The notes under the pieces were generated by a model. It did not search any database. It saw nothing but the letters and a program-made list of their open reading frames with translations, and was not told the DNA's origin. Source: Patescibacteria group bacterium (GTDB lineage Bacteria; Patescibacteriota; Patescibacteriia; Patescibacteriales; UBA12465). From it: a stretch of DNA of 64,000 nt. The position numbers were made by a program, and so were the translations under genes. Position 1 is the first letter of the stretch. Each line of letters begins with the position of its first letter. Positions 15,255 through 54,800 of this stretch are shown here, piece after piece. The stretch covers positions 1,664 to 65,663 of the forward strand of contig JALNZW010000003.1 of the NCBI GenBank assembly GCA_023229115.1, read 5' to 3'.

Positions 15255-15258
15255 AATA

Positions 15259-17697: not shown

Positions 17698-19125
17698 TTA
17701 TTTTTCGAGGTTTTTCCTTATATAATCAGCATTAAGCCAGAAACAATGTTTCGTATAAAACTTACTACCTGTAAATTCATCTTCCGTTGGAAGTTCTATT
17801 ACATCAGAGGAATCCTTTCCATGAGGCCTAACATGTGCAACTCCATTAAACTTTGATGTTGGAAAGAAGGTAAATCTTCTTTCTTTGCCATTTTTATATT
17901 TTTTTATTTCTTTAACTATTTTACCTTTATCAACTAATTTCTTAGTCTTGCTCCAAACACTCTCAGCGTAGTTCATGTCAGAGGCGGGAAAGTTCCAAAA
18001 TTTATAGCCCTCAAAATGAATTAGATCTTTTGTCTTATCTTTATCTTTCCTAAAAATTATAAACAAAAACCTATCTTCTTCTAACATCTTGAAGAAATTA
18101 GTTTCCTCCCATTTCTGTTTCAGAATTTGTTTATAGTTAAAATATGGAAACGAGATTGATTCTTTTAATTTACCATTACTTTCTAACACCACAACTTTCA
18201 TTGTGACATTAGATTTCTCAAACTCCTCAACCTTATTAGCTGATATGCCGAGCATGAGATTGGCAAGTAATCTTTTATATTGCTTAGTTTTCTTATTAAC
18301 CTTAAGGCCAATCTCAGAAAGTATCTGTTTATCAGACATCCCAATAAAAGGAGCTAATCTATCATCAACAGACTTATCTATTGTCTTTCCTTTTTCGGAT
18401 ATAGATTGAATATCCCCCTCCAATCCCATAATCTTTTCATGGAGAATAAAATTTAAATAGTTTTGCTTCAAAGAAAAGGCTCTTGGCTTTGCTTGTATGT
18501 CAGAGTTTGGCTGCTTTCTTGTAATAGAACTATTAGCCGCCTTCGTGCAAGCACCGAGATAAAAAGTCTCGCCCTCTGAAAGTAAATGCGCCTCCCCTCT
18601 TTTAATTTTATTTATAATATACTCCCAATCATTCTTAATCTGCAAAGCATCTTCAGCAGAAATCTTGTTCACTAAATCAAGTTCATAAAGAAACTTAAAT
18701 TTATATTCCAATAAACTTAGGTCGCTCTCATAAAGATAAAACATAAGTAATATTAACTTATTCTTATCCAAAAATGAACTATGCTCCCAATCTTCTAATA
18801 CAACAGATACATAGTCTATCATTGAGAATACAAGGCGTTCTTTAACGGCATATTCTTTGCTTTTATGTTTTTTTATTGGCGTTGTTTTTAATTCAACTCC
18901 GGCAATCTTAAAGTCAGCCTCATGTCTATTGTCCACCAAAGCCTGGTTAAATACATATTTTTGAACAAGTTGACCAAGAAATCCTTTTCTTTTTTTTCCG
19001 TGTTTTTCTATATCTCTTTTTGCCTCAGCAACATCATCTTTTTCCATCACATCAAGAAGGCGCTTATCCATAAAGGCTAAGGCATCATTAAAGACTTCTT
19101 CTTTTGTGTTATAAACTTTTAACAT
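17698..19125 (-). CDS. type II restriction endonuclease, Sau3AI/MutH family (predicted GATC-specific)
   Basis: 475 aa. The MutH-like catalytic region is DNRHEADFKIAGVELKTTPIKK (D...E-x-K with the GVELKT motif), and the gene lies directly upstream of the C5-MTase. Confidence 0.7.
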   Translation of the reverse strand: MLKVYNTKEEVFNDALAFMDKRLLDVMEKDDVAEAKRDIEKHGKKRKGFLGQLVQKYVFNQALVDNRHEADFKIAGVELKTTPIKKHKSKEYAVKERLVFSMIDYVSVVLEDWEHSSFLDKNKLILLMFYLYESDLSLLEYKFKFLYELDLVNKISAEDALQIKNDWEYIINKIKRGEAHLLSEGETFYLGACTKAANSSITRKQPNSDIQAKPRAFSLKQNYLNFILHEKIMGLEGDIQSISEKGKTIDKSVDDRLAPFIGMSDKQILSEIGLKVNKKTKQYKRLLANLMLGISANKVEEFEKSNVTMKVVVLESNGKLKESISFPYFNYKQILKQKWEETNFFKMLEEDRFLFIIFRKDKDKTKDLIHFEGYKFWNFPASDMNYAESVWSKTKKLVDKGKIVKEIKKYKNGKERRFTFFPTSKFNGVAHVRPHGKDSSDVIELPTEDEFTGSKFYTKHCFWLNADYIRKNLEK

Positions 19126-19131
19126 AAATTA

Positions 19132-19938
19132 TTAAACAATCAACTTTATTTTTGAATCTCTCAAAAATCTGGTTAAGGTTCTTTTTTCTTGACCACCCCT
19201 TGGCACTCTTCCGTAAAATCTTTGTGATCCGACTCTTTTAGTACAGTAACTTATGTAAAGACCGTGCTTAGCTCTTGTCATTGAAACATAAAGCAATCTT
19301 CTTTCGTCTCCAATAAATTCACCTTCATTTTTCCCTGGTAAAAACTCATCTTCAGCCCCAACAATAAAGCAAACATCAAATGTTAACCCTTTAGCTTTGT
19401 GCATAGTAAGAATACTAACAGCATCCTTTTCTGCACTCTGTTCTATTCTATCAGAATTAATACCGATAGACTTTACTATGCTCTCTAATGTATCAGATTC
19501 ATCTGAAATATATTTAACAAAATATTTTAAAATCCTCTCACGTAAAACGGTATCTTCCACATAGTGCTCTATAACTCCTTTAACTTTATCAATTAAATTG
19601 TCTATTTTATTAAATTCTTCTAAATCATCTTCTACTTTTTCAACGAAACTCTTTATCTTTTCTCCATATTTACTAACAACAATATTTTGCTTTATTTCTT
19701 GTAAAGATTTACTGAATCTAAGATTTTTATCAACTGCTATTCGAAAAACATCATCAATACTTTTTTCTCCAATATTATTTTTAGCAAGCTCCAAGAGTGT
19801 TCTCCACGCTAAATCATCTTCTTTATTCGATAATAATCTAAAAATAGAAAGGACGACTCTAAATTCTGACTGGCTTTCTAATGCTGAATCAGGGGCACCC
19901 GCAATCATGATACCATTACCAACAAGCACATCACTCAT
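19132..19938 (-). pseudogene. helicase C-terminal fragment (SF1 UvrD-like motifs V-VI) of a disrupted nuclease-helicase gene
   Basis: ILTMHKAKGLTFDVCFIVGAED ... LLYVSMTRAKHGLYI are UvrD/PcrA helicase C-terminal motifs. No Walker A/B is found in this ORF. Confidence 0.55.
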
Positions 19939-19973
19939 TAAACTTAAAATGGCAGCACTTCTTGATAATATGA

Positions 19974-20558
19974 CTATTTTTTCTGCTGGAACACCTTTAC
20001 TAATACATCAAATGCTGATAAATAAGTCTTTCCAAGACCTGTGGCGAATACTACAAGACCTTTGTTTTTGCCAGATTTTCTTGTTTCATCTAAAGCCTCA
20101 AGGGCACGATTTTGAATATAGTGAGGCTCAACATCTCCCAACCTATTTAAATATATTTTATAAAGTTGTTCATCACCTATAAAACTTCTTCTTATTTCCC
20201 AAATGCAAGATTGAGGCTCTTTTCTTATTAAATCATTGGTAAATCGTATTAGATGAAAACCCTCTTTTATAATTTCGTTTTGCTTGTTTTGTAAATGATT
20301 AAAATATTCTTTAGTAACAGCTCCTTGCGCGTGATAATAGAGGCCGTCACACTCTATTGCATATTTTTTAAATTTTGTTGTTATAACAAAATCTAGTCTA
20401 TACACACCAGAACCATCTGGTTTAGGTATTTCATATTCTGGAGTAATATAATCAAGCCCCTTTTCTCCAAAATCTTTATAATAAACATTGATTATAAAGG
20501 TTTTACCCAAATCATTTAGCTTGTTTTTATATTTAAATAAAAAATCATTTAGTTTCAT
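19974..20558 (-). pseudogene. N-terminal fragment: DUF559/Vsr-like PD-(D/E)xK endonuclease domain plus helicase Walker A (ATGLGKTY), truncated
   Basis: YRLDFVI...AIECDGLYYH nuclease motifs, then GLVVFATGLGKTYLS. The ORF ends 20 residues later. The next ORF is in a different frame and carries only C-terminal helicase motifs. Confidence 0.5.
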
Positions 20559-20682: not shown

Positions 20683-20979
20683 TCACTTCTTTTTTCTGCA
20701 GACATCGCACCCCGCCATGCCAGTAAACCATGGCCAATGTTCAATGCTATTACTAAATTTAATATATGAATTTGATACTGGTCTATGAATTCTATTCTTT
20801 TTACATTTTGGACATAGAATGCCATTACAAAGACAGGTAACTGAAATTAGCTTTTCACCTTCTTCTGGACTGTTATTGAAAAAATCGTTACCCCAATTTA
20901 AATATTTTTTCATTATTTTTCCATTATATTCCCCGCAAACTTTGCACTCAATTAAACCTTTCGAAATTTCGTTTTCCAT
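20683..20979 (-). CDS. Cys-rich zinc-ribbon protein (hypothetical)
   Basis: 98 aa with CKVC, CLC...CPKC and CDVC pairs. Confidence 0.5.
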   Translation of the reverse strand: MENEISKGLIECKVCGEYNGKIMKKYLNWGNDFFNNSPEEGEKLISVTCLCNGILCPKCKKNRIHRPVSNSYIKFSNSIEHWPWFTGMAGCDVCRKKK

Positions 20980-21049: not shown

Positions 21050-21170
21050 AAATCGACCTTTATCTTCCCCATCTAGGGCTAGGTTTAGCACCTTCTGAAT
21101 GGATTACTTCAGGGTTGCTGGCAGGTCATCGGGCTAGTTCCCTCACTGCACTCTTTATAAATAGATTATT
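21050..21170 (-). ncRNA. candidate structured ncRNA (GC-rich island, unidentified family)
   Basis: A roughly 55% GC, 120-nt island in an AT-rich spacer. On the minus strand an extended -10 (gTGcTATAAT, plus-strand 21190-21200) lies just upstream, and a hairpin plus T-run (about 21005-21040) lies downstream. Nested complementarity is present (gcag..ctgc, cggg..ccc). Confidence 0.35.
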
Positions 21171-21362: not shown

Positions 21363-21437
21363 TGGCTCCGAGGGTGGGATTCGAACCCACGACCAATTGA
21401 TTAACAGTCAACTGCGCTACCGCTGCGCCACCTCGGA
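21363..21437 (-). tRNA. tRNA-Asn (anticodon GTT)
   Basis: Manual cloverleaf TCCGAGG-TG-GCGC-AGCGGTA-GCGC-A-GTTGA-CTGTTAA-TCAAT-TGGTC-GTGGG-TTCGAAT-CCCAC-CCTCGGA-G-CCA. It has a 7-bp acceptor stem, U33 and A37, anticodon GUU, and an encoded CCA. Confidence 0.9.
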
Positions 21438-41622: not shown

Positions 41623-42468
41623 TTACTTCTCGCTTGAGTCTTCTTTTTTTTCTTCAACTTTCTCTTCAGCCTTTTCCTCAACTTTCTCCTCGACTTTTTC
41701 TTCTTTTTTTTCTTCAACTTTTTCGGCAATCTTTTCTTCAGTCTTTTCTTCAGTCTTGTTTTCTACTTCTTCTGTTTTATTTTCAACAAGCTCTTCTTTT
41801 TTTTCTTTTACTTTTTCTGTTTTAACGCTGTCTTTAACAAGCAATTCACCTTCTCCCTTGATAATCACTAAAGAATTTGTAGCTCCAGGAACAGCTCCTT
41901 TTACAAAGATTACATTATTTTCTAAATCAATATCAACAATTTCCATATTTTTAGTAGTAATTCTGTCACCACCCATTCTTCCACCCATTTTAGTTCCTTT
42001 AAAAACATGGGCTGGACCTTTTGGGCCAACAGAACCAGAGGCTCTTAATTGATCTTTATTACCATGAGTCTTCTTAGAACCAGAAAAACCATGTCTTCTA
42101 ACAACACCCTGGAATCCTTTTCCCTTTGAAGTTCCTGTAACATCAACAATATCGCCGCCAGTAAAAGTAGAGACATCAATCATTTTACCAATTTCTATAT
42201 TTGAATTATCTTCTTTTAATCTAAATTCTCTTAAATATCTAACATCCTCACGACCCAAAGCTTTCTTCACATGACCTTTAACTGATTTGGAAATATTTTT
42301 AGACCTTCTTTCTCCATAAGAAATCTGAACAGCTTTATAAGAATCGCTCTTATCATTTTTAATTTGAGTAACAAAACAAGGACCAGCCTGAACAAGAGTA
42401 CAAGGAATAACTTTATCCCCTTGCCAAATCTGAGTCATTTTCATTTTTTTCCCTAGTATAAATTTCAT
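41623..42468 (-). CDS. rplC: 50S ribosomal protein L3 with roughly 70-aa Lys/Glu-repeat C-terminal tail
   Basis: L3 core up to about residue 210, then EKVKEKKEELVENKTEEVENKTEEKTEEK... low-complexity repeats. Confidence 0.9.
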   Translation of the reverse strand: MKFILGKKMKMTQIWQGDKVIPCTLVQAGPCFVTQIKNDKSDSYKAVQISYGERRSKNISKSVKGHVKKALGREDVRYLREFRLKEDNSNIEIGKMIDVSTFTGGDIVDVTGTSKGKGFQGVVRRHGFSGSKKTHGNKDQLRASGSVGPKGPAHVFKGTKMGGRMGGDRITTKNMEIVDIDLENNVIFVKGAVPGATNSLVIIKGEGELLVKDSVKTEKVKEKKEELVENKTEEVENKTEEKTEEKIAEKVEEKKEEKVEEKVEEKAEEKVEEKKEDSSEK

Positions 42469-43151: not shown

Positions 43152-43204
43152 CTTAATTTTATATTTTATTTTAAATTATAAATTATTTTAAATAAACATT
43201 ATAA

Positions 43205-43225
43205 GCTCGCCTAGTAAAGGCGAGC
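43205..43225 (-). terminator. hairpin after tuf (gctcgcc/ggcgagc)
   Basis: 7-bp GC-rich stem 9 nt after the tuf stop, followed on minus by T-rich sequence. Confidence 0.45.
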
Positions 43226-43233
43226 CTAAATAT

Positions 43234-44436
43234 TTACTTGATAATTTTAGCTACAACACCAGCTCCAACTGTTCTACCACCTTCACGAATAGCAAATCTT
43301 TGCTTTTCTTCAAGAGCGATAGGAGCAATTAATTTAACCTTTAAATTAACTGTATCGCCAGGCATAACCATTTCAACTCCTGCTGGTAATTCAATTTCAC
43401 CAGTTACATCAGTTGTTCTGATGTAGAATTGAGGTTTATAACCTTTGAAAAATGGTTTGTGTCTTCCACCTTCATCTTTACCTAAAATATAAACTTCAGC
43501 TTCAAATTCTGTATGAGGTGTAACTGTTCCTGGTTTTACCAAAACTTGACCTCTCTCTACTTCATCTTTTTTTGTACCTCTTAAAAGTAAACCAGCATTA
43601 TCACCAGCTTCACCTCTATCTAAAGATTTGTTAAACATTTCTACTCCAGTAATAGTTGTTTTCTTGGTATCCATTAAACCAACGATCTCAACTTCATCAC
43701 CAACATTGACAACACCTCTTTCAATTCTGCCTGTACAAACAGTACCTCTTCCTTCAATTGAGAAGATATCTTCAATCGGCATCAAAAATGATTTATCCAA
43801 ATCTCTCTCCGGAGTTGGAATATGATCATCTAAGGCTTTAAGTAAATCAGCAATTGGTTGTGCGTCTGGTCCTGTTGGATTTTCTAAAGCCTTCAAAGCA
43901 CTACCTCTAATGATCGGAGTTGCATCTCCAGGGAATTCATATTTCTTTAATAAATCCTTGATTTCCTCTTCGACTAAATCAATTAATTCTTTATCCTCCA
44001 CCAAGTCACATTTGTTCAAAAATACAACAATGTAAGGAACACCAACCTGACGAGCTAACAAGATATGCTCTCTAGTTTGAGGCATAGGTCCATCAGTGGC
44101 TGAAACCACTAAAATAGCACCGTCCATTTGAGCGGCACCAGTGATCATATTTTTAACGTAATCAGCGTGACCAGGACAATCAACGTGAGCATAATGTCTA
44201 GTTGCTGTTTCATACTCTTGGTGAGAAGTAGCAATTGTGATACCTCTTTGTTTCTCCTCAGGAGCATTGTCAATTTCATCAACTCCTCTTTGAGTTGCTT
44301 TCATACCTTGAGCATTAGCTACATTTAATATAGCTGCTGTCAAAGTTGTCTTCCCATGATCAACGTGACCAATTGTTCCAACGTTGACATGAGACTTACT
44401 GCGTTCAAATTTGTCTGCCATTTTTTTTGAAAACAC
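43234..44436 (-). CDS. tuf: elongation factor Tu
   Basis: 400 aa with [18 protein letters not shown] and NKCD motifs. Confidence 0.95.
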
Positions 44437-44562: not shown

Positions 44563-44832
44563 TTAATTTTCAGCCTCTTCTCTAATTTGCGGTGGAATCT
44601 TCCAATTACTCGAACCTTTTCCGTTTTCATTAACACCATTTTCATCTCCCTTGATATTATCAATATTTTTTTTCTCTGTCAAGCCTTTTTCCTGACTAAT
44701 ATTAATTAAGCCTTCATATTGATCCAGGCTCATCAAAACAAAAGAATCCTCTGGCTCACTATTATCAAAAACAATAATACGATCCCCTGTTTTTTTTGAT
44801 AAACTTATAACTTGTTTTAATTGTTTAGACAT
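44563..44832 (-). CDS. hypothetical acidic protein (89 aa)
   Basis: ORF between the pilin-like genes and tuf, with no recognised motif. Confidence 0.4.
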   Translation of the reverse strand: MSKQLKQVISLSKKTGDRIIVFDNSEPEDSFVLMSLDQYEGLINISQEKGLTEKKNIDNIKGDENGVNENGKGSSNWKIPPQIREEAEN

Positions 44833-44893
44833 AAAATAACATTTTAATTATAACTAAGTATTATAATTAAAAATTAAATTATGTCAATAAAGA

Positions 44894-45904
44894 TTAGTTT
44901 GGATAATAACAAGTATTGCCCATTTCATATAAAAAACTTATTTCATCTAGAGACAATTCCCGGTTAAAAAACATAATCTCATCAATTGGTCCCAAAAAAT
45001 AATAACCATCAAACCTTCTTCCAATAAAATCAATTAATATATTACTTGAATTATTTCCAGAATAAGAGGTCCCAATCTTAACTCCGTTAATATAAAAATC
45101 AAAATTATAACTATCTGTTTTTACAACAACCAAATGAACAAATTCATTTACCTTAGACCAATTAACGCCAGTATAGCCTGATCCAACCTGAAAGGCTAAA
45201 AATTCTGTACCATTATAACGAATACCAGCAGTACGAGAAGAGTCACCTATGAAATATCTAGTAGTAGAAACATTATTGAGATTAATCCAAAGAGATAGGC
45301 TTGTGCCAACAGAAAACTCTATTGGAGAATTCAAGGTTATGTAATTGCTAGAACCATCAAAATTAAAAGCTTGCCCAAACCTACCATCAACATAAGTGGC
45401 TCCAGTAAAAACACCATCATAATTTCCTAAATAATCATTAGCATTTTCTTCCGCCTGTAAATAGGCTATTAAATCAGAAGGACAGCAAGGACTATCTATT
45501 ATGTTTTCATTTACTGCACAATTATAACCAGAATCAAAATCATCCAAATTGCCCTCTAACTCAAAAGAAAGGGAATATTTTCCACTGTCTTGATAATGAT
45601 TATAAATAACATTATCAGGAATCTTATCATAAAAAACAACACCCGAAGGGCTAACTAATTGTTCACCGTAATTAAAATTTTGATTATCAGGATATTCACC
45701 TTCTACCATTTTATAAGACTCTAGAGCTAATCTTAACTCTGAAATATTACTTAAAACCTTTTTGTCCCTAGCTGATCTTCTAATAACACTAACTGAAGCG
45801 ATAGCCACGGTTGTCACTAATGAAATTATTAAAACAACCACCATGAGTTCTGTAAAAGTAAAAGCAGTTAATAAATTTTTTCTATTTTTTTTAAAAACAA
45901 ACAT
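44894..45904 (-). CDS. prepilin-type N-terminal domain protein with C-terminal LamG-like (concanavalin A-like) domain, paralog 3
   Basis: N-terminus MFVFKKNRKNLLTAFTFTELMVVVLIISLV (class III signal). C-terminal LamG_3-like block ending IDEIMFFNRELSLDEISFLYE. Confidence 0.7.
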   Translation of the reverse strand: MFVFKKNRKNLLTAFTFTELMVVVLIISLVTTVAIASVSVIRRSARDKKVLSNISELRLALESYKMVEGEYPDNQNFNYGEQLVSPSGVVFYDKIPDNVIYNHYQDSGKYSLSFELEGNLDDFDSGYNCAVNENIIDSPCCPSDLIAYLQAEENANDYLGNYDGVFTGATYVDGRFGQAFNFDGSSNYITLNSPIEFSVGTSLSLWINLNNVSTTRYFIGDSSRTAGIRYNGTEFLAFQVGSGYTGVNWSKVNEFVHLVVVKTDSYNFDFYINGVKIGTSYSGNNSSNILIDFIGRRFDGYYFLGPIDEIMFFNRELSLDEISFLYEMGNTCYYPN

Positions 45905-45930
45905 AAATATTTGTAAATTATAAATTATTA

Positions 45931-47004
45931 TTATAAAACACTATCCACCCACATAGGACAAGACGTCGGACAATCAGGTAATAAAGAAGCATTGTTTTTA
46001 TTAATAGAATAATCCAAAACAGAACACCCAGAACCATCATCCATTAACCATCGAACGAGCAGATCGTTACTTGATATTTTTCTTCCTTCATGTAAAGAAA
46101 CTATTTCCTCAAGAGTTAGAGCTCTTCTGTAAATTCGAGCATCATAAATATAGCCTTTAAAATAGTTAGAAATGCCAGCTGTGTATACACCTCTATAACC
46201 AGAAGTTATCGGTCTATTTATTGAATTAACCAAATTAATACTATAGGTTCTCTCTCCAACTTTAACACCATCCAAATAAGCAAAAAACTTTTTATTAGAA
46301 AAATCATGAACAATAGTTGCTAAATACCACTGATTTCTAGGGACATAAGAATCAAAGCTAACACAAAAAGCAAGGCTATCTCCATAAGTACAAACTCTGT
46401 TAGCATAAAGATGAAATCCGAAAAGATACTGCTGACCAACACCTATAACCGTTTGCCAATTCATTAAATCTTGGTTATCAACATATACCCAAGCACTAGC
46501 TGAGTAATCACCGGAATTAATATTAAAATCAACGTTTTGACTGGAGGATAAACAATCATCGACTCCATCAAATTTAAGATAATTACTACTTAGATCAGGT
46601 ATAATGTCTTTGTTTGTAATCCCTTCAGGTGTTGCTAAGTTTAAACCTTCACTCAATTGATCTGAATTATTTTCTAGTTCAAATTCTAGCTCATAATAAT
46701 CGTCTCCAAATAATAAATATGAAAAATCACCCGGCATTTCATTTAAAAAAACCAAATTGGAAGAGCTTCCAATTAATTGATCACTCAAATTTAATTGTTC
46801 CGGATATTCCCCTTCAACGTTTTTATAATTTTCTAAAGCAATTTGAATTTGATTAACATCATTGATTTTTTTTAAGTCCCTACCCTTACTCCTGGAATTA
46901 GAAAGAGAAATCATCACTAAAGTAGAAATTAAGGCAACAATTAAAACAGCAACTAAAATCTCAACAAAGGTAAAGGCTTTCTTGTTTTTAAAAACATTAA
47001 TCAT
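45931..47004 (-). CDS. prepilin-type N-terminal domain protein with C-terminal LamG-like domain, paralog 2
   Basis: N-terminus KKAFTFVEILVAVLIVALISTLVMISLSNSRSKGRDLKKINDVNQIQIALENYK. C-terminus ...ARIYRRALTLEEIVSLHE. Confidence 0.7.
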   Translation of the reverse strand: MINVFKNKKAFTFVEILVAVLIVALISTLVMISLSNSRSKGRDLKKINDVNQIQIALENYKNVEGEYPEQLNLSDQLIGSSSNLVFLNEMPGDFSYLLFGDDYYELEFELENNSDQLSEGLNLATPEGITNKDIIPDLSSNYLKFDGVDDCLSSSQNVDFNINSGDYSASAWVYVDNQDLMNWQTVIGVGQQYLFGFHLYANRVCTYGDSLAFCVSFDSYVPRNQWYLATIVHDFSNKKFFAYLDGVKVGERTYSINLVNSINRPITSGYRGVYTAGISNYFKGYIYDARIYRRALTLEEIVSLHEGRKISSNDLLVRWLMDDGSGCSVLDYSINKNNASLLPDCPTSCPMWVDSVL

Positions 47005-47007
47005 ATT

Positions 47008-48249
47008 TTAGTAATTTTTGTAATATTTTTTAGTATTATCATACAAACTCAAAACTTCTTCAGCTGATAAAGCCTTATTAAAATACATAGCATCGTTTAT
47101 ACGACCTTGAAAATAAGATTCGGTAGTACTACCACCCTTACCTAAAAACATGGGCTTGTCAGTTCCTATATTCATAACGGTATTTTCGATTTCAGATATC
47201 AACTGACCATTCTTATAAAATCTACGAAAAGAACCATCATCAGTTAAAACAATAAAATGCCAACCATCGGGGTATTTACTTAGAATATAATCTTCTATGG
47301 GCCACCATTGCCTATCGATAGAATCAATTGAATTTTGACTAGCAATTTTACCAGAATAGAGGGCTAGCCCCCAACGACCCAAACTCAAACCAGTACCCCA
47401 CAACAATCCTCCTGAGCCCTGTGGCTTTGTACCATCTAGCCAAAGAGCTAAAGAATATTCTGTTTGTTTTGGCATTGTTGAAATATTAAAAAAATCATCA
47501 ACTCCATCAAAATAAACAAATCCATTGATCAATTTTGGCTGAAGATCAATATTTGTTTGAATTGCATTTTTTTTATTCAAAGAAAGATCATAAATCTCTC
47601 CAACCCCATCAACACTACTGCTGTCAATTTTTAAGCCACCATCAGATGATAAAAAAAGAATTAAATTTTCATAAATATTATTGTTTTGAAAATAATGGAA
47701 TAAGTTGTAGGTTTTATTTTCATTTAAAATAAAACCTCCACTACTAGAAACAAAACCTAAATAGTCTAAGCAATAATCTCGACAACAAGCTGATTCAAGA
47801 ATGCCATCAGCATTAGCACATTTAATTCCGGGAGAAAAATTTAAAGCAGTATTTTCAACTTCAAAACCTATGTCATAACTCAAAGTTAAAGTATTATAAT
47901 AATAATCAACTTTGTCTGGCACCTCACTTAAAAAAACCAAACCAGAAGAACTTCCAACTAACGATTCTCCTGGGATTAATTGTTCTGGGTATCGTCCTTC
48001 AACATTTTTATAATTTTCTAAAGCAACTTGAATTTGATTAACATCATTAATTCTTTTTAAATCTCTGCCCTTACTCCTGGAGTTAGAAAGAGAAATCATC
48101 ACTAAAGTAGAAATTAAGGCAACAATTAAAACAGCAACTAAAATCTCAACAAAGGTAAAAGCTTTTTTATTTCTTATAAACAAAAAATTATTCATACCAA
48201 AATTATAGCAAAAAAATATATATTTTAAAAACAAAAAACGGAGCTTCAA
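47008..48249 (-). CDS. prepilin-type N-terminal domain protein with C-terminal LamG-like domain, paralog 1 (true start probably the internal Met at 48195)
   Basis: The first 55 residues after the leader are identical to paralog 2. C-terminus DAMYFNKALSAEEVLSLYD. The Met at residue 19 gives a 12-aa leader before AFTFVE. Confidence 0.7.
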   Translation of the reverse strand: MKLRFLFLKYIFFCYNFGMNNFLFIRNKKAFTFVEILVAVLIVALISTLVMISLSNSRSKGRDLKRINDVNQIQVALENYKNVEGRYPEQLIPGESLVGSSSGLVFLSEVPDKVDYYYNTLTLSYDIGFEVENTALNFSPGIKCANADGILESACCRDYCLDYLGFVSSSGGFILNENKTYNLFHYFQNNNIYENLILFLSSDGGLKIDSSSVDGVGEIYDLSLNKKNAIQTNIDLQPKLINGFVYFDGVDDFFNISTMPKQTEYSLALWLDGTKPQGSGGLLWGTGLSLGRWGLALYSGKIASQNSIDSIDRQWWPIEDYILSKYPDGWHFIVLTDDGSFRRFYKNGQLISEIENTVMNIGTDKPMFLGKGGSTTESYFQGRINDAMYFNKALSAEEVLSLYDNTKKYYKNY

Positions 48250-48277: not shown

Positions 48278-50362
48278 CTATTTACCACTTTTTTCTTTAA
48301 TTTGTTCTAAAATATTTCTTGGAACTTCATTATAATGAGAAAATTCCATTGAATAATTAGCTCTACCTTGACTCATTGACCTCAAAGATGTGGCATAGCC
48401 AAACATTTCTGCCAATGGAACTTTAGCTAAAATAACTTTAGCATTACCCCTATCAGTCATTTCTTCAATTTGACCTCTTTTAGCATTTAAATCCCCAATA
48501 ATATTACCCATATATTCCTCTGGAGTAGTAACTTCAACTTTCATAATTGGCTCAAGTAAAACTGGACTAGCTTTTTGACAAGCATCTTTGAAGGCAAAAA
48601 TAGCTGCCATTTTAAAAGCTATTTCAGAAGAGTCAACCTCATGATAAGAACCATCATAAACAGTTACCTTAACATCAACCATTGGATAACCAGCTAAGAC
48701 ACCGCTTCCCATTGCCTCTTTAACACCCTTCTCAATAGCAGGAATATATTCCCTTGGAATAGCTCCTCCCTTAACTTCATCAACAAATTCATAAGTTTTA
48801 CCACCTTCATTAACCTGTGGTTCCAATCTCAAGTAACAATGACCATATTGACCACGGCCACCAGATTGTTTAGCATATTTATGTTCAGCCTCAGCTTTTT
48901 GTTTAATAGTTTCACGATAAGATACTTGAGGATTGCCAACATTAGCTTCAACACCAAATTCTCTTCTCATACGATCAACAATAATGTCCAGATGAAGCTC
49001 TCCCATGCCAGAAATCAAAACTTGTCCACTCTCTTCATCACTTTCCACTCTAAAAGTTGGGTCTTCTTCGGCTAATCTGCTTAAAGCAATACCCATTTTT
49101 TCTTGATCAGCCTTAGTTTTTGGTTCAACAGCAATCTTAATAACTGGTTCAGGGAAAACAATAGATTCAAGTAGTAAAGGATTCTTTTCATCACATAAAG
49201 TATTTCCAGTTGTAGTATCTTTTAAACCAATAACAGCTGCAATATCTCCAGCCTTTATTTCTTTGATTTCTTCTCTGTGGTTGGCATGCATACGAACTAA
49301 ACGACCGATTCTTTCTTTGTTACCAGTAGAAGAATTTATTATGTATGAACCAGAACTCAAAACACCACTATAAACTCTAACGAAACAAAGCTTTCCAATA
49401 AAAGGATCGGTGGCTATTTTAAAAGCCAAACCCATAAAAGGTTCTTTTTCATCCGGCTTAACAACCACCTTTTTAGTTTCATCATCAACATCGGTAGCTT
49501 CTATCTCTGGAACATCAAGAGGAGATGGTAAATAATCACAAACAGCATCAAGGGCTTTTTGGACTCCAATATTCTGCAAAGCTGTTCCACAAAAAACTGG
49601 ATATATTCCATTTGAAATAACACCCTTTCTTAAAGCTGGTTTCAATTCTTCAACAGATATTTGTTCACCACTTAAATATTTTTCAGTTAAATTATCATCA
49701 AATTCAGCAATTCTTTCAACTAATTCGCTGTGATATTTTTCAACCTTATCTTGTATGTCAGCTGGAATTTCAATTTCAGTTATATTCATACCAAAATTAC
49801 CTTCAAACTTATAAGCTTTTTTTTCTAAAACATCAACAACTCCAGAAAAAGTACTTTCAGAACCAATTGGCAACTGATAAGCAACTGCTTTAGGGTTTAG
49901 TCTTTTTTTAATAGAATCCAAACTCATATAAAAATCAGCTCCTGTTTTATCCATTTTATTAACAAAACAAAGTCTAGGAACATTATATTTGTCTGCTTGA
50001 CGCCAAACAGTTTCTGATTGAGGTTCAACACCTTGAGATCCATCAAAAACGGCAATAGCGCCATCCAAAACACGAAGTGATCTTTCTACCTCAACAGTAA
50101 AATCAACGTGACCAGGGGTATCAATTATATTAATTTTATTGTCCTTCCAAAAACAAGTTGTAGCGGCTGAAGTTATAGTAATTCCTCTCTCTTTTTCTTG
50201 TTCCATCCAATCCATATCAGCGGCACCATCATGAGTTTCACCGATCTTATGTTTTTTTCCAGTATAAAAAAGAACTCTTTCAGTAAAAGTTGTTTTTCCA
50301 GCATCAATATGGGCCATGATACCAATGTTTCTAAATTTATCCAGAGTATAATCTTGCGACAT
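48278..50362 (-). CDS. fusA: elongation factor G
   Basis: 694 aa with AHIDAGKTT and DTPGHVDF. Confidence 0.95.
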
Positions 50363-50638: not shown

Positions 50639-51106
50639 TTATCTTGAGAAATGAGCAAAAGCCTTATTAGCCTCAGCCATCTTATGAACAGTTTCTCTCT
50701 TTCTAACAGATGCACCTTCACCATTAGAAGCATCTAAAATTTCAGCAGCTAATTTCTCGGCCATTGATCTTCCTTTTCGATCTTTAGAAGCTGAAATAAT
50801 CCAATTACAACCCAAATAAAATCTTCTTTCGCCTCTTACTTGGAAAGGAACTTGGTAGTTGGCACCACCAACTCTTTTACCTCTAACCTCAAGCAAAGGA
50901 GAAACTTTCTTCAAAGCTTTATTAAAAATGTGTCTTGGATCGTGTTTGGTTTCTTGGCGAATAATATCAAAAGCATCATAAGTTATCTTTTGAGCTACTG
51001 ATCTCTTTCCGTCAACCATTATATAATTTATAAACTTGGCAATATTTTTATCACCATATTTTAAATCATTTTCAATTTTTCTTTTTGGAGCTTGTTTACC
51101 TCTCAT
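50639..51106 (-). CDS. rpsG: 30S ribosomal protein S7
   Basis: 155-aa protein with strong S7 similarity throughout. Confidence 0.9.
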   Translation of the reverse strand: MRGKQAPKRKIENDLKYGDKNIAKFINYIMVDGKRSVAQKITYDAFDIIRQETKHDPRHIFNKALKKVSPLLEVRGKRVGGANYQVPFQVRGERRFYLGCNWIISASKDRKGRSMAEKLAAEILDASNGEGASVRKRETVHKMAEANKAFAHFSR

Positions 51107-51170
51107 AGTTTTAAAATTACCAGCTATAGCAATTTTTATTAATTTATATCAATTTTATGTTAATTAAATT

Positions 51171-51590
51171 TTAAGCTTTTGGCTTTTTGGCACCATAGCA
51201 GCTTCTTCCCTGTCTTCGAGCATCAACACCCTGAGCATCATAAACACCACGAACAACTTTGTATCTAACACCCGGTAAATCTTTTGTTTTTCCACCCTTA
51301 ATTAAAACGATTGAGTGCTCTTGCAAATTATGTCCCATTCCAGGAATATAGGCAGTAACCTCCATTCCATTAGACAAACGAACACGAGCAATTTTACGTA
51401 AAGCTGAGTTCGGTTTCTTGGGAGTCATGGTAGTAACCTTAAGACAAACACCCTGCTTAAAAGGTGAGCCACTTTTTGTAACTTTTTTCTTACGATGCAA
51501 AGAATCTAAACTAGTACGTAAAGCTAAATTCTTTTTTCTTTTACTGGAAGGTTTTCTTCCCTTTCTAACTAACTGATTAATAGTTGGCAT
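51171..51590 (-). CDS. rpsL: 30S ribosomal protein S12
   Basis: 139 aa with [10 protein letters not shown] and [12 protein letters not shown]. Confidence 0.95.
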
Positions 51591-51721: not shown

Positions 51722-52645
51722 TTATTCCTTAATACATCTAATGTATCGACCATAAACAGAGTCTATCAGAACAGAGTTAGAAGTCACAATTGTTAACCCA
51801 CTATTATTATATACATCATACAAACGTGTTCCGAGATCATCTACTGTTCTGGTCCAGAGATAAAAACCAGTTCCGAAATAAGGCCATTGAGTTGAATATT
51901 TGTGACCACCAGGAAGTAAAGAAAAGCCAAGATCGTCAGTGCCATAAACAGTGTCAGAAGCCCAATAAGGATGCTCTGAAGTTGTACATTCTCCTCTTAA
52001 AGGAGAATTTGTTTGACGACATGATCTAAGATTATAAACATTATAGGCACCAATATTGCTAATTAGAGAAATAAAATCATCTCTGGTTGGCACCATCCAA
52101 CCATCAGGACAAACTCCTCTAGGGTCAGTTATAGTATGAGATGAGTAAACATAGCCATAAAGACCGCTATAAAGAAAATCATGAGTCGGATAATTCACTC
52201 CTGTCCAACTTCCAGTAACATAAGGAATACTATCCCTATTTTTAAATTTGTCAGTTATTAAATTTTCTTTAAACCAACACTGATCACCGATAGCAACTGT
52301 AGGATAAGTGTAACCATTATAGGAGACATCTTGACCACATTCAAAAGTATCAACAATACAAGAACCACTTTGACAAATATAGCCAGGTTGGCAATCAGGG
52401 TAACAAATATTAGAAGTAGATTCTCCTCCTTCTCCTGATTCACCACTTGAACAATCATAATTTAAAATACCTCCAGGTGTAGCACATTTTGGTCCTTCTT
52501 CTAGGCTAGAGATGTCATTTCCTAAACAGAAAGAAATAGAATAAGTAGAATAATCATCATCAACTTGATAATAAAAAGTATTTTGATTAGGATCACAGAC
52601 ACCATCAGCTGGATAAGGAGCAGTAGGAATATTAATCATTAACAT
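51722..52645 (-). CDS. FISUMP (Fibrobacter succinogenes major paralogous) domain protein; downstream part of a frameshifted prepilin-FISUMP gene
   Basis: GDQCWFKENL...GVCPDGWMVPTRDDFISL... matches the FISUMP signature. Confidence 0.7.
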   Translation of the reverse strand: MLMINIPTAPYPADGVCDPNQNTFYYQVDDDYSTYSISFCLGNDISSLEEGPKCATPGGILNYDCSSGESGEGGESTSNICYPDCQPGYICQSGSCIVDTFECGQDVSYNGYTYPTVAIGDQCWFKENLITDKFKNRDSIPYVTGSWTGVNYPTHDFLYSGLYGYVYSSHTITDPRGVCPDGWMVPTRDDFISLISNIGAYNVYNLRSCRQTNSPLRGECTTSEHPYWASDTVYGTDDLGFSLLPGGHKYSTQWPYFGTGFYLWTRTVDDLGTRLYDVYNNSGLTIVTSNSVLIDSVYGRYIRCIKE

Positions 52646-52899
52646 TTCTCCACTAGAAGTAATGAGAGTACCACTATTCCATTCTTCTACAGTAGGATAA
52701 CGGCCTTGTTCATTAAAGAATAGCTCTAGGGCGGTTTGGGTTTGTTTAACGTCAGCTACACGTTTAGAATCACGAGCACGAGAGCGAGCCTGTTGTAAGG
52801 CGACAACTGCTAAGTAGCCAGTATTCCAATGATAGCGATTACTACCAAGAGTTCGATGAGGGTGAAGGCTTTTTGTTTTTTATAATTGTTTTTAAACAT
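52646..52899 (-). pseudogene. prepilin-type leader plus N-terminal helix segment, offset by 1 nt from the FISUMP ORF (frameshift near 52812)
   Basis: From ATG at 52899: MFKNNYKKQKAFTLIELLVVIAIIGILAT, then TAG. The -1/+2 frame continues (L)AVVALQQARSRARDSKRVADVKQTQTALELFFNEQGRYP... directly into MLMINIPTAPY. One T appears to be missing in ACT-TTA. Confidence 0.55.
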
Positions 52900-52943: not shown

Positions 52944-54800
52944 TTATAATAAAACGGCTTTAATTCTCCTAACACCAGAACTAGAACTTTCTTCTTTTTG
53001 TATTTTAAATACACCTAAATTTTCCAAACTTTCAACATGAGGACCACCACAAATTTCTTTAGAAAAGTCACCCACAGAATAAACTTTTACTTTTTCTCCA
53101 TATTTAGATTCAAAAACTCCAGTAGCCCCCATCTTCTTAGCTTCTTCCAAACTCATTTCGCTACAATTAACTTTTAAACCTTTCTGAATATTTTCATTTA
53201 CCAAATCTTCTACTTGTTTTTTTTGTTCATCAGTCATTTTCTCAGGATGCGAAAAATCGAAACGAAGTCTTTCGGCAGTAATATTACTTCCCCGCTGTGA
53301 TACATGATCACCTAAAACTCGACGAAGAGCCTCTAACAATAAATGAGCCGCAGTATGAAGCTTGGTAGTTTCCTCGCTTTGATCAGCCAGACCTCCCTTA
53401 AACTTTCCAGCACTAGCGGTTTTAGATAATTTTTGATGTTTGTTTAAAGCTTGATTATATTCCTCTAAAAAATTATCTGATTTGGAAATATTTTTTTCTT
53501 CTATAATTTCTAATGTCATCTCGAGTGGATAGCCATGACTTTGAAAAAGATTAAAAGCAATTTCGCCATTAATTTTCTCCCCCTTTTCAACCAAACTATT
53601 TAAAACTCTCTCCCCCTTCTCTATGGTTTTATTAAACTTGTATTCTTCTTCATTAAAAGCTTTTAAAATAAAATTCCTATTTTTATTTAATTCACTATAA
53701 GAATCTTTATAGAAATCAACAATCACCTGACTTAATTCAGAGATAAGATTTTGTTGTTCAATTTTTAATTGCTTCAAGTAGCGCACCGCTCGTCTAATAA
53801 GACGCCTAATAATATAACCTTGATCAGTGTTAGATGGGCTAAGTCCCTTGTCATCTCCCAATAAAAAAGTTGCACCCTTAATATGATCAGCAATAACTTC
53901 AAAAGCTTTTTTATTATCTTCGTATTTAAGTCCAGAAATATTTTCTAATCTATCAACAATAGAACCCAAGGAGTCAATTTTGAAAATATTGCTCAAATTA
54001 TTTTTTATCATCACAATTCGCTCTAATCCTCCACCAAAGTCAACATTTTTGTTTTCTAATTCTTTCCAGCCATCAACTGTTTTTTGATACTGCATAAAAA
54101 CAGAATTACCAATTTCAATAAATCTTCCACAGTCGCAATTTAAATGACAATGCTCACCAAATTTTGGATCATGTTTTTTACCAGTATCATAAAAAGTTTC
54201 ACTATCTGGACCGCCTAATTCTCCAACAGCATCACCTCTCTGCCACCAATTTTTATCACGGTAAGCAAAGATTCTATCTTTAAAAAAATCAAGCTCTACA
54301 CCCGGCCCCTCATCTCCCTTGGTGGTAGTTTCGGGTCCTTCACCAGCTTCAACTCCGTATTTCTTATAAATATTTTTTAGAATTTGAATTGATTCTTCAT
54401 CTTTGACAATATTCTTTCCATCACCAACATAAACTGTTTGATAAATTTTATTTATATCAAAGCCTAGTTCTTCTATTAAAAATTCAAACCACCAATTCAA
54501 TTGCTCCTCTTTAAAATAATCTCCCAAACTCCAGTTACCAAGCATTTCAAAAAAAGTATTATGGCGACCATCGCCAACATCATCAATATCTTCGGAACGA
54601 AAACATTTTTGACTATTTGTTAAACGAACGCCAGCTGGATGTTTCTCGCCTAAAAGATATGGGACCAAGGGAAACATACCAGAATTGGTAAACAAAAGAC
54701 TAGAATCATTTTCGGGAATGAGCGATGAAGATGATATCAGGGCGTGTTGTTTTTTTTGAAAAAATTCAAAATATTTTTGTCTGATTTCACTAGTTGTCAT
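52944..54800 (-). CDS. alaS: alanine--tRNA ligase, short form lacking C-Ala domain
   Basis: Catalytic core (FTNSGM, RHNTFFEMLGNWSLGDYFK) and editing-domain HTAAHLL...CGGPHV. It is 618 aa, versus about 870 aa for typical AlaRS. Confidence 0.85.
   Translation of the reverse strand: MTTSEIRQKYFEFFQKKQHALISSSSLIPENDSSLLFTNSGMFPLVPYLLGEKHPAGVRLTNSQKCFRSEDIDDVGDGRHNTFFEMLGNWSLGDYFKEEQLNWWFEFLIEELGFDINKIYQTVYVGDGKNIVKDEESIQILKNIYKKYGVEAGEGPETTTKGDEGPGVELDFFKDRIFAYRDKNWWQRGDAVGELGGPDSETFYDTGKKHDPKFGEHCHLNCDCGRFIEIGNSVFMQYQKTVDGWKELENKNVDFGGGLERIVMIKNNLSNIFKIDSLGSIVDRLENISGLKYEDNKKAFEVIADHIKGATFLLGDDKGLSPSNTDQGYIIRRLIRRAVRYLKQLKIEQQNLISELSQVIVDFYKDSYSELNKNRNFILKAFNEEEYKFNKTIEKGERVLNSLVEKGEKINGEIAFNLFQSHGYPLEMTLEIIEEKNISKSDNFLEEYNQALNKHQKLSKTASAGKFKGGLADQSEETTKLHTAAHLLLEALRRVLGDHVSQRGSNITAERLRFDFSHPEKMTDEQKKQVEDLVNENIQKGLKVNCSEMSLEEAKKMGATGVFESKYGEKVKVYSVGDFSKEICGGPHVESLENLGVFKIQKEESSSSGVRRIKAVLL

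What the first reader, a model, noticed from the sequence alone, without database searches (positions are those of the whole stretch)
44894..48249. Three tandem paralogous prepilin-LamG genes inserted between fusA and tuf in the str operon
rpsL-rpsG-fusA-tuf is one of the most conserved gene strings in bacteria, yet here 3.4 kb encoding three pilin-like proteins (class III signal KKAFTFVEIL..., conserved N-terminal helix, divergent middle, LamG-like jelly-roll C-terminus) separates fusA from tuf. Paralogs 1 and 2 share an identical 55-aa N-terminus, which points to recent duplication or gene conversion with diversifying C-domains. That pattern is consistent with pilus-tip adhesins or minor pilins used for host or cell attachment, or DNA uptake.
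Basis: partly seen in the sequence, partly recalled or inferred. Interest (0 to 1): 0.65.

Follow-up and report, generated by a model that had tools for sequence, protein, structure and literature searches.

The report
Swappable lectin-pilin genes between fusA and tuf
Three real, intact genes for type IV pilins carrying a lectin-like (LamG) head sit between the translation genes fusA and tuf of an uncultured Patescibacteria bacterium; the protein type is already known, but this slot turns out to be a strain-variable cassette site for probable attachment proteins.

Summary
On the minus strand, fusA is followed by three prepilin-LamG genes: 47008-48195, 45931-47004 and 44894-45904. All three proteins have a class III signal (Ala at -1, Phe+1, Glu+5) and a Laminin_G_3 domain above Pfam threshold. 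An AF2 model of the middle one shows a pilin helix, a small sheet and a jelly-roll that matches LamG and pentraxin folds.

The arrangement is not a chimera. Five independent assemblies reproduce it at 99.9-100% identity, and all sampled relatives with EF-G at least 88% identical carry 1-3 pilin genes in the same slot. Relatives at 81-85% have only orf89 there.

Slot content is mosaic across lineages: LamG, FISUMP, Listeria-Bacteroides repeats, an unassigned module, or a bare 149-aa pilin. C-modules are swapped against the flank phylogeny, and fusA and tuf give incongruent relationships. Gene-wide dN/dS is 0.12-0.22, so selection is purifying and the diversity comes from cassette replacement.

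Best reading: modular minor pilins displaying lectin-like adhesin heads on type IV pili of an episymbiont. Pilin plus PF13385 is a published, common architecture, so this is a new member of a known kind in an unusual, recombination-prone place.

The parts
48278..50362 (-). fusA (EF-G, 694 aa), upstream flank of the slot
   Evidence: 97% aa identity to L001
48233..48264 (-). Intrinsic terminator hairpin plus T-run right after fusA. It insulates the pilin genes from rpsL-rpsG-fusA transcription.
   Evidence: dG -19.8 kcal/mol, z -5.95. A hairpin plus T-run at the same place, with a different stem sequence, occurs in L005, L008 and L009.
48202..48229 (-). Promoter-like site (TTTAAA-16-TGnTATAAT) for the pilin genes. 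The -10 box ends 6 nt before the ATG, so the mRNA may be leaderless (inference).
   Evidence: The -10 element is conserved in L001, L005 and L009.
47008..48195 (-). Prepilin-LamG gene, slot 1 ('P3', 395 aa). Leader MNNFLFIRNKKA, mature N-terminus FTFVE, pilin module about 1-140, Cys cluster 126/137/138/142, LamG module to the C-terminus.
   Evidence: Contains P0004. Orthologue in L005 at 78% aa. The C-module is replaced in L001-L004.
45931..47004 (-). Prepilin-LamG gene, slot 2 ('P2', 357 aa). Leader MINVFKNKKA. A lineage-specific duplicate of the slot-1 pilin module with its own LamG module. The tail (about residues 310-357) resembles the first strand of a further LamG repeat.
   Evidence: The AF2 model shows helix 13-64, sheet 85-130 and a beta-sandwich 143-292.
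44894..45904 (-). Prepilin-LamG gene, slot 3 ('P1', 336 aa). Leader MFVFKKNRKNLLTA, mature N-terminus FTFTE. It belongs to the 'last-slot' pilin type found across the LamG-bearing relatives.
   Evidence: Identical to public protein P0157, which NCBI names 'LamG-like jellyroll fold domain-containing protein'.
47976..48179 (-). 204-nt 5' repeat shared with 46791-46994 (91% identity, including a 77-nt identical run). This is the homogenised pilin alpha1-coding segment of P3 and P2.
   Evidence: (dS 0.18 for codons 0-35 against 0.7-1.4 elsewhere)
44860..44887 (-). Perfect sigma-70 consensus TTGACA-16-TATAAT directly after the P1 stop codon. It would drive orf89-tuf independently of the pilin genes.
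   Evidence: Conserved in L001 and L005. L008 and L009 have an extended -10 (TGCTATAAT) instead.
44563..44832 (-). orf89, a conserved small gene that always precedes tuf in this part of Patescibacteria. It has a weak Phd/YefM-like N-terminal domain, a conserved W-x-IP motif and an acidic tail. It was in the slot before the pilins.
43234..44421 (-). tuf (EF-Tu, 395 aa from MADKFERSK), downstream flank. Followed by a terminator at 43202-43228.
51722..52899 (-). Fourth prepilin gene, upstream of rpsL. It has a pilin module plus a FISUMP (Fib_succ_major) domain and is disrupted by a 1-nt deletion between 52813 and 52812. It is intact (733 aa, two FISUMP domains) in L005.
   Evidence: The deletion is reproduced in independent assembly L112.
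50639..51590 (-). rpsL (51171-51590) and rpsG (50639-51106), the start of the str operon

Best explanation
The three genes encode modular type IV pilins. A short Lys-rich leader would be removed after Ala(-1) by a prepilin peptidase. The hydrophobic alpha1 helix (Phe1, Glu5) and a small beta-sheet form a compact pilin module of about 125 residues, which lets the protein be built into a type IV pilus. A LamG/ConA-like jelly-roll of about 200 residues grafted onto its C-terminus is displayed on the filament, most likely at or near the tip. There it would act as a lectin-like adhesin for surface glycans or cell-wall polymers of the host cell on which this Patescibacteria episymbiont lives.

The genes form their own transcription unit. 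It is insulated from rpsL-rpsG-fusA by a terminator, and it is followed by a consensus promoter that keeps orf89-tuf expressed.

The slot between fusA and orf89-tuf is a cassette site. In the clade that has it, it holds 1-3 pilin genes. Their C-terminal modules are replaced wholesale between lineages, probably by homologous recombination. The likely anchors are the near-identical translation genes on either side and the conserved 5' pilin-coding segment.

Shown here: the sequence features, the predicted fold, conservation of the slot, purifying selection, and the mosaic pattern. Inferred: processing by a peptidase, incorporation into pili, ligand binding, and a role in host specificity.
For: Class III signal motif in all three proteins, and in the fourth pilin. 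Ala at -1 is the commoner residue in this pilin family: 22 Ala against 10 Gly among the retrieved homologues.

N_methyl at threshold in two of them, with sub-threshold GspG, ComGC and ComGE N-terminal matches. A profile of the family hits GspG and geopilin N-termini in PDB.

Laminin_G_3 above cutoff in all three. AF2 model of P2: helix 13-64, sheet 85-130, beta-sandwich 143-292, with pLDDT 70-93 in the folded parts. Foldseek top hits are PAPP-A LamG modules, pentraxins and clostridial toxin receptor-binding domains, with E between 1e-9 and 1e-7.

The two modules have separate relatives. The pilin module (residues 5-135) recurs at 45-56% identity on proteins of 150 to 1241 aa. The LamG module resembles repeats of giant 1000-7000-aa proteins.

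The ORFs are intact, and dN/dS is 0.12-0.22 against 0.015-0.07 for the flanking genes.

Slot census in relatives: LamG x3, LamG x2, an unassigned module, Flg_new_2 plus He_PIG-FISUMP, Flg_new-Gly_rich_2 plus FISUMP, FISUMP x2, a short pilin plus FISUMP, and a short pilin alone. The slot is empty of pilins in relatives with EF-G at or below 85% identity.

Mosaicism: the slot-1 C-module of the window matches L005 (85% aa) but not the closer relative L001 (25%), whose module matches L095 (81%). fusA nt identity groups WIN with L001 (93.5%), while tuf groups L001 with L005 (94.9%).

Regulatory elements.

Precedents: S. sanguinis PilC is a modular minor pilin with a ConA-like lectin module that binds glycans, modelled at the pilus tip (PMC9934059). 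Pilin + PF13385 is among the most frequent modular pilin architectures, and the top-15 architectures include several CPR representatives (PMC8179133). TM7x minor pilins with large C-terminal domains contribute to host binding (PMC11623550).
Against: No pilus biogenesis genes (pilB, pilC, pilD, pilM, pilT) were found among the window ORFs scanned, or within 10 kb beyond either end. The link to an assembly machine therefore rests on the general conservation of T4P in Patescibacteria, as reported in the literature.

The -1 residue is Ala rather than the canonical Gly, and P1 scores below the N_methyl cutoff.

The AF2 model is of moderate confidence (mean pLDDT 67.8). The linker (116-139) and the tail (322-357) are unmodelled.

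There is no detectable sequence similarity to S. sanguinis PilC itself (it is absent at E<=0.01).

All three proteins keep Glu5, so none looks like a terminal cap subunit.

There are no expression, localisation or binding data.

Recombination is inferred from pairwise identities among a handful of lineages, not from a formal test.
Confidence: 0.68

Rival explanations
1. The proteins are pseudopilins of a competence (Com) or type II secretion-like pseudopilus rather than subunits of an adhesive pilus. The LamG modules would then serve DNA or nutrient capture, or secretion, not host attachment.
For: The best N-terminal matches are to GspG, ComGE and ComGC models, all far below their cutoffs. The profile hits GspG in PDB. 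Patescibacteria depend on uptake of external nucleotides and DNA (general knowledge).
Against: No NCBIfam equivalog cutoff is reached (33 bits against 88.85 for GspG). The N-terminal helix is shared by all type IV filament subunits and does not discriminate between systems. LamG, FISUMP and Listeria-Bacteroides repeat modules are typical surface-binding modules. In TM7x, the T4P-2 pilin mutants showed no competence defect (PMC11623550).
Confidence: 0.12
2. The class III signal is used only for export and membrane anchoring. The proteins stay on the cell surface as tethered lectins, like the archaeal 'bindosome' sugar-binding proteins that carry pilin-type signals, and are never polymerised.
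For: The C-modules are bulky. No machinery genes lie nearby. Patescibacteria genomes encode very many pilin-signal proteins with unrelated C-terminal domains.
Against: A complete pilin module (a helix of about 50 residues plus a beta-sheet and a conserved Cys loop) is retained under purifying selection, not just the signal. Glu5 is kept in all three. The same pilin module also occurs as stand-alone 149-150-aa pilins, including in this very slot (L102 and L110).
Confidence: 0.12
3. The insert is an artefact (assembly chimera) or a decaying, non-functional insertion.
For: Several assemblies break inside the slot: L092, L093 and L094 start within it. The neighbouring FISUMP pilin gene really is frameshifted.
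Against: Contigs spanning both junctions are 99.9-100% identical in independent assemblies. The slot is conserved across at least 10 lineages. The ORFs are intact and dN/dS is 0.12-0.22. The terminator and promoter elements are conserved.
Confidence: 0.02

Closest known systems
Modular type IV pilins with the architecture IPR012902 (class III signal) + PF13385/IPR013320 (Raynaud et al. 2021, PMC8179133)
   Same: The domain architecture is identical: a short pilin module with a ConA/LamG-like module grafted at the C-terminus. That survey counted more than 1,200 modular pilins in 264 architectures. It names PF13385 among the frequent, carbohydrate-binding ones, and several CPR lineages (Magasanikbacteria, Falkowbacteria, Wolfebacteria, Gracilibacteria, Saccharibacteria) among the representatives.
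   Different: That survey says nothing about genomic context. Here the genes lie between fusA and tuf, occur in tandem, and are exchanged between lineages. The -1 residue is mostly Ala in this family.
Streptococcus sanguinis PilC (minor pilin, PilABC tip complex; PMC9934059)
   Same: A pilin moiety plus a concanavalin A-like lectin module. PilC has been shown to bind glycans and is modelled at the pilus tip. It is encoded alongside another modular pilin.
   Different: No detectable sequence similarity (not recovered by the family profile at E<=0.01). PilC has an extra Ig-like module and is encoded in the pil machinery locus. Here there is no machinery nearby. No partner equivalent to PilA was identified.
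Nanosynbacter lyticus TM7x PilX1 / PilX2 (PMC11623550, PMC12206443)
   Same: [quoted passage not shown] PilX2 is needed for efficient host binding, and glycan binding has been proposed.
   Different: A different class (Saccharibacteria). The genes are in T4P loci. Homology to the present proteins was not tested here. The PilX1 jelly-roll is reported as not recognised by CD-Search, whereas these proteins are clear PF13385 members.
GspG / major pseudopilin and ComG pilins
   Same: The N-terminal 60 residues align: class III signal plus the alpha1 helix.
   Different: Scores are far below the family cutoffs. Those proteins are about 100-150 aa and have no grafted module.
Variable surface-structure loci held between conserved housekeeping genes (e.g. 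pneumococcal cps between dexB and aliA; O-antigen clusters between galF and gnd). This comparison is from my own knowledge and is an analogy only.
   Same: A hypervariable surface-determinant cassette flanked by conserved genes, with evidence of replacement by recombination in the flanks.
   Different: Here the flanks are core translation genes of the str operon, and the cargo is one to three pilin genes rather than a biosynthetic cluster. Recombination has not been formally demonstrated.

Membership tests
Type IV pilin (type IV filament subunit) | Class III signal peptide: a short basic leader, a small residue at -1, Phe/Met at +1, Glu at +5, then about 20 hydrophobic residues | tested here: met
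   P3 is MNNFLFIRNKKA|FTFVEILVAVLIVALISTLVMI. P2 is MINVFKNKKA|FTFVE.... P1 is MFVFKKNRKNLLTA|FTFTELMVVVLIISLV. The -1 residue is Ala rather than Gly, as in 22 of 34 retrieved homologues.
Type IV pilin (type IV filament subunit) | Pfam N_methyl (PF07963) / TIGR02532 at or above the curated cutoff | tested here: inconclusive
   P2 scores 21.9 bits and P3 21.6 bits against a cutoff of 21.2, so both pass. P1 scores 11.1 and fails. TIGR02532: 17.1 and 16.9 against 16.3 for P2 and P3, 12.0 for P1.
Type IV pilin (type IV filament subunit) | Lollipop fold: an extended N-terminal alpha-helix of about 50 residues packed on an antiparallel beta-sheet | tested here: met
   AF2 model of P2: helix 13-64 and strands at 85-130. 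pLDDT is 79-93 for residues 41-90 and lower in alpha1N. Only P2 was modelled.
Type IV pilin (type IV filament subunit) | Processing by a prepilin peptidase and assembly by a PilB/PilC-type machine encoded in the same genome | not testable with these tools
   No such genes were found among the window ORFs scanned or within 10 kb beyond either end. The rest of the genome is not available.
LamG / concanavalin A-like lectin-glucanase superfamily (PF13385 Laminin_G_3) | Profile match above the gathering score | tested here: met
   68.0, 63.0 and 45.5 bits against a cutoff of 27.6. The family profile hits PDB 4qvs at 6e-17 and the arabinanase LamG-like domain at 7e-9.
LamG / concanavalin A-like lectin-glucanase superfamily (PF13385 Laminin_G_3) | Two-sheet jelly-roll beta-sandwich fold | tested here: met
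   The AF2 model has a beta-sandwich at 143-292. Foldseek top hits are PAPP-A LamG, serum amyloid P and other pentraxins, and BoNT/TeNT Hc (E 1e-9 to 1e-7, prob 1.00, TM on target 0.6-0.73). Tested for P2 only.
LamG / concanavalin A-like lectin-glucanase superfamily (PF13385 Laminin_G_3) | Carbohydrate or other ligand binding | not testable with these tools
Modular pilin, as defined by Raynaud et al. 2021 | [quoted passage not shown] | tested here: met
   The definition is taken from PMC8179133.
Phd/YefM antitoxin (considered for orf89) | Profile match above the gathering score, the Phd/YefM fold, and an adjacent toxin gene | tested here: not met
   21.1 bits against a cutoff of 29.8. 38 of 60 family members give weak hits, the best at 1e-6. 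Foldseek finds nothing significant; YefM and RelJ appear only at E about 1.5. There is no toxin gene: the neighbours are always fusA or pilins on one side and tuf on the other.

The most novel reading that the evidence does not exclude
The fusA / orf89-tuf junction in this Patescibacteria clade may be a dedicated adhesin-cassette exchange site anchored by recombination. Because the flanks are among the most conserved DNA in any genome, DNA taken up from even fairly distant relatives could recombine there and swap the lectin heads displayed on the pilus. That would re-target the episymbiont to new hosts, making this a host-range switch built into the str operon. A second, separate novelty is orf89. 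It is a family of more than 1000 members found only in Patescibacteria, fixed between fusA and tuf in every sampled case. It could be an undescribed regulator or partner of EF-Tu expression.
Probability: 0.25. Interest if true: 0.6.

Novelty: new member of a known kind. Interest (0 to 1): 0.35.

Why it matters
Patescibacteria are obligate episymbionts, and how they recognise hosts is largely unknown. Type IV pili and their lectin-like minor pilins are the leading candidates. This locus gives a compact, easily located marker: anything between fusA and orf89-tuf. It samples the adhesin-head repertoire of a whole clade directly from metagenomes, and it shows that heads are exchanged as cassettes rather than tuned by point mutation. 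It also warns that the rpsL-rpsG-fusA-tuf string, often assumed contiguous for phylogenomic marker extraction and synteny checks, is routinely interrupted in this phylum. The protein type itself is already described and annotated, so the advance is about genome organisation and population variation, not a new mechanism.

Tried and rejected
1. Assembly chimera: rejected.
2. Gene-wide positive selection on the pilins: not found. NG86 omega is 0.12-0.22 for the orthologue pairs, and 0.10-0.29 when the pilin and C-modules are scored separately. Site-level tests were not possible with so few orthologues.
3. Foreign composition of the insert: GC 0.29-0.34 against 0.31-0.37 in the flanks, so no clear signal.
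4. Mobile-element footprints: no tRNA or integrase, and only the 5' pilin repeat and the terminator palindrome were found.
5. Pilus machinery: not found in any of the window ORFs scanned (about 30 by Pfam; several ORFs at roughly 25.7-31.5 kb were not scanned) or within 10 kb beyond either end.
6. Rfam: nothing in the region. Only a tRNA and a SAM riboswitch elsewhere in the window.
7. orf89 function: the profile against PDB found nothing, Foldseek was not significant, and only weak Phd/YefM hits appeared.
8. Literature on pilins in the str operon of CPR: no paper holds both 'candidate phyla radiation' and 'str operon'. One unrelated paper holds Patescibacteria + pilin + LamG.
9. The idea that a pre-existing terminator/promoter 'landing pad' explains the insertion: weakened. 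Pilin-less relatives have orf89 only 8-54 nt after fusA.
10. The TTG start at 48249 for P3: rejected, because it lies inside the terminator hairpin.


Full report
**What is there.** The window is AT-rich (about 31% GC), and almost every gene is on the minus strand. Reading that strand, the order is:
- alaS (52944-54800)
- a prepilin gene with a FISUMP domain (51722-52899)
- rpsL and rpsG
- fusA (48278-50362)
- three prepilin-LamG genes: 'P3' 47008-48195, 'P2' 45931-47004 and 'P1' 44894-45904
- an 89-codon ORF (44563-44832)
- tuf (43234-44421), then rpsJ and the S10 operon

Pfam gives Laminin_G_3 above the gathering score in all three (68, 63 and 45.5 bits against 27.6). N_methyl is at threshold in P2 and P3. 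NCBIfam gives only sub-threshold GspG and ComG N-terminal matches.

All three proteins have a class III signal: a Lys-rich leader of 10-14 residues, Ala at -1, Phe+1 and Glu+5, followed by a hydrophobic helix. Ala at -1 is the commoner residue in this pilin family, with 22 Ala against 10 Gly among the retrieved homologues.

- The TTG start at 48249 lies inside the fusA terminator hairpin. The ATG at 48195 (395 aa) is the start used by independent gene calls.
- The identical run between P3 and P2 is 39 residues (62 of 66), not 55.

**Is it real?** Yes. P1 is identical to a public protein found on at least nine contigs. Contigs from independent ENA, JGI and NCBI assemblies match the window at 99.9-100% nt identity across fusA-P3-P2-P1-orf89-tuf and on into the S10 operon. 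Related strains (EF-G 94-97% identical) from other samples have the same layout with two or three pilin-LamG genes.

**Fold.** An AF2 model of P2 was built from a 25-row alignment (mean pLDDT 67.8). It has an N-terminal helix (13-64), a small sheet (85-130), an unmodelled linker, and a beta-sandwich (143-292). Foldseek against PDB returns LamG modules of PAPP-A, pentraxins and clostridial neurotoxin receptor-binding domains, with E between 1e-9 and 1e-7. A family profile hits a LamG-type S-layer domain (4qvs, 6e-17), and its N-terminus hits GspG and geopilin. Only P2 was modelled; P1 and P3 rest on Pfam.

**Modularity.** An exhaustive phmmer search of 1.84 billion representatives gave 20,407 hits at E<=1e-3, and they fall into two sets:
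- The pilin module (residues 5-135) recurs at 45-56% identity on proteins from 150 to 1241 aa.
- The LamG module (140-345/356) resembles the repeat unit of giant 1000-7000-aa proteins.

Full-length relatives are few. This is what the 'grafting' model of modular pilins predicts (PMC8179133).

**How deep is the insertion?** I scanned one genome per species with EF-G and located tuf in each locus. I then scanned metagenomes with orf89. The results:
- Non-CPR bacteria have 40-250 nt between fusA and tuf.
- Every sampled relative with EF-G at least 88% identical has 1-3 pilin genes between fusA and orf89.
- Relatives at 81-85% identity (L010, L011, L107-L109), and at 70-78% (L015, L031, L083), have orf89 but no pilin. 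In some, orf89 starts only 8-54 nt after fusA.
- Other Patescibacteria carry unrelated genes at the junction (L010, L017, L025, L027, L028, L040).
- In some Magasanikbacteria-labelled genomes tuf is not downstream of fusA at all (L012, L013).

So the junction is often interrupted in this phylum, and the pilin insertion defines one sub-clade.

**Slot contents.** Pfam on the slot proteins shows these combinations:
- LamG x3: the window, and L001-L004/L101 (with a different first module)
- LamG x2: L005-7/L096-97 and L095
- one pilin with an unassigned module: L008/L105
- Flg_new_2 + unknown, and He_PIG + FISUMP: L009/L106
- Flg_new x2 + Gly_rich_2, and FISUMP: L098
- FISUMP x2: L100 and L104
- a bare 149-aa pilin + FISUMP: L102
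- a bare 149-aa pilin alone: L110

**Evolution of the locus.** Flanking proteins are 96-99% identical between the window and L001 or L005. P2 is 91% and P1 81% identical to their L001 counterparts. P3 matches L001's first gene only in the pilin module (72%), but is 78% identical over its full length to L005's first gene.

Nei-Gojobori estimates give omega 0.015-0.07 for the housekeeping genes and 0.12-0.22 for the pilins. The pilins evolve faster, but selection is purifying.

A neighbour-joining tree of the pilin modules groups them by slot position. There is a 'last-slot' type (P1 and its orthologues). There is also a 'first-slot' type that includes P3, with P2 as a duplicate present only in the window/L001 lineage. 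The upstream FISUMP pilin forms a separate type.

The 5' 204 nt of P3 and P2 are 91% identical, with a 77-nt perfect run. Synonymous divergence is 0.18 in codons 0-35 against 0.7-1.4 further on. That suggests gene conversion, or a very recent shared 5' end.

C-modules are distributed against the flank phylogeny:
- By fusA nt identity the window is closest to L001 (93.5%), then L005 (89.1%), then L095 (87.1%).
- Yet the slot-1 C-module is shared by the window and L005 (85% aa). A second type, about 25% identical to the first, is shared by L001 and L095 (81%).
- The last-slot C-module is one type in the window, L001 and L095, and another in L005.
- tuf groups L001 with L005 (94.9%) rather than with the window (91.2%).

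The simplest reading is recombination with breakpoints in or beside the slot. This rests on pairwise identities in a few lineages and is not a formal test.

**Regulatory layout.** A strong hairpin with a T-run follows fusA (dG -19.8 kcal/mol, z -5.95). Hairpins with different stem sequences sit at the same place in L005, L008 and L009. A TGnTATAAT element ends 6 nt before the P3 ATG. P3-P2 and P2-P1 are 3 and 26 nt apart, so the three genes probably form one operon. No terminator follows P1. Instead, a perfect TTGACA-16-TATAAT lies directly before orf89, and a terminator follows tuf. The inferred units are rpsL-rpsG-fusA | P3-P2-P1 (possibly reading through) | orf89-tuf. All of this is pattern matching, not evidence of function.

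**Mechanism (inferred).** By analogy with S. sanguinis PilC, a modular minor pilin whose ConA-like module binds glycans and which is modelled at the pilus tip with PilA and PilB (PMC9934059). Also by analogy with the TM7x minor pilins that carry large C-terminal domains, one of which is needed for host binding (PMC11623550). On that basis the three proteins are most likely minor pilins that present lectin-like heads on type IV pili for attachment to host-cell surface polymers. Wholesale head replacement between lineages would change binding specificity.

Rival readings are pseudopilins of a Com/T2SS-like system, and surface-tethered lectins that are never polymerised. Neither can be excluded, because no machinery gene lies in the window or within 10 kb on either side.

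**Comparison with the known.** Pilin + PF13385 is one of the frequent modular pilin architectures catalogued in 2021, and CPR lineages are among the representatives of the top architectures (PMC8179133). Public annotation already names these very proteins 'LamG-like jellyroll fold domain-containing protein' or 'prepilin-type N-terminal cleavage/methylation domain-containing protein'. The protein kind is therefore known. The new points are the position inside the str operon, the conservation of that slot across a clade, and its mosaic contents. I found no paper on these.

**Verdict.** A real feature, correctly read by the first stage apart from details. It is a new member of a known kind, with a moderately interesting genomic-context story. 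Interest 0.35.

Noticed in passing
window 44563-44832 (-); also L010, L015, L017, L031, L083, L088-L090: orf89 is an 88-170-aa protein family with at least 1363 members at E<=1e-3. Named sources are all Patescibacteria or unclassified 'bacterium'. In every case examined it lies between fusA and tuf, including 3 of 3 distant members sampled. It has a conserved N-terminal alpha-beta-beta-alpha domain with weak Phd/YefM similarity, an invariant W-x-IP motif and an acidic tail. It has no toxin partner and no significant structural match. It could be an undescribed regulator or partner linked to tuf.
   Followed up: partly
window 51722-52899 (-), deletion between 52813 and 52812: The prepilin-FISUMP gene upstream of rpsL has a 1-nt deletion (GCTACT-TAG against GCTACTCTAG in relatives) that splits it. 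The same deletion is present in an independent assembly (L112). L001 and L003 show this gene split at a different place. It is intact, with two FISUMP domains (733 aa), in L005. This suggests recurrent inactivation of this pilin.
   Followed up: partly
pilin leaders in the window and in P0001-P0183: In this pilin family the residue before the predicted cleavage site is Ala more often than the canonical Gly (22 against 10).
   Followed up: partly
window 13246-16236 (-): A gene cluster with domains of the ABC-three-component (ABC-3C) conflict systems: SMEK_N + CTD12 (15259-16236), MC6/MC8 middle component (15018-15407), and a DUF2326 protein (13246-15021).
   Followed up: no
window 16381-20558 (-): A C-5 cytosine DNA methylase (16381-17631) lies next to a protein with two MutH/Sau3AI-like domains (17698-19125), a probable restriction-modification pair. 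It is followed by what look like fragments of a UvrD-type helicase and a restriction enzyme (19132-20558).
   Followed up: no
window 21057-21163 (-): A SAM (S-box) riboswitch at 62 bits, upstream of a 98-codon ORF with no Pfam match (20683-20979). tRNA-Asn lies at 21363-21437.
   Followed up: no
window 41623-41830 (-), the C-terminus of rplC: Ribosomal protein L3 carries a Glu/Lys-rich repetitive C-terminal tail of about 65 residues (EEKVEEK...). Its length and sequence differ between otherwise near-identical strains (258-281 aa; 75% identity to L005 against 92-99% for neighbouring ribosomal proteins).
   Followed up: no
L012, L013 (also L014, L016): In the relatives with EF-G about 70% identical (two of them labelled Magasanikbacteria), tuf is not found downstream of fusA within the sequence held. 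In L012 fusA is followed by a 1616-aa protein. In L013 it is followed by unrelated genes, including what look by eye like a ribosomal protein S16 gene and a signal peptidase gene. The str operon is thus broken differently there.
   Followed up: no
window 45931-46074 (-), P2 residues about 310-357: The tail of P2 (LLVRWLMDDGSGCSVLDYSINKNNASLL...) looks like the opening strand motif of a further LamG repeat, and it aligns with the repeat unit of giant multi-LamG proteins. This hints that the module was cut out of a tandem-repeat protein in a shifted register.
   Followed up: no
L092, L093, L094: Several independent assemblies of this same strain end inside the pilin slot, as expected if co-occurring strains differ there.
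   Followed up: no
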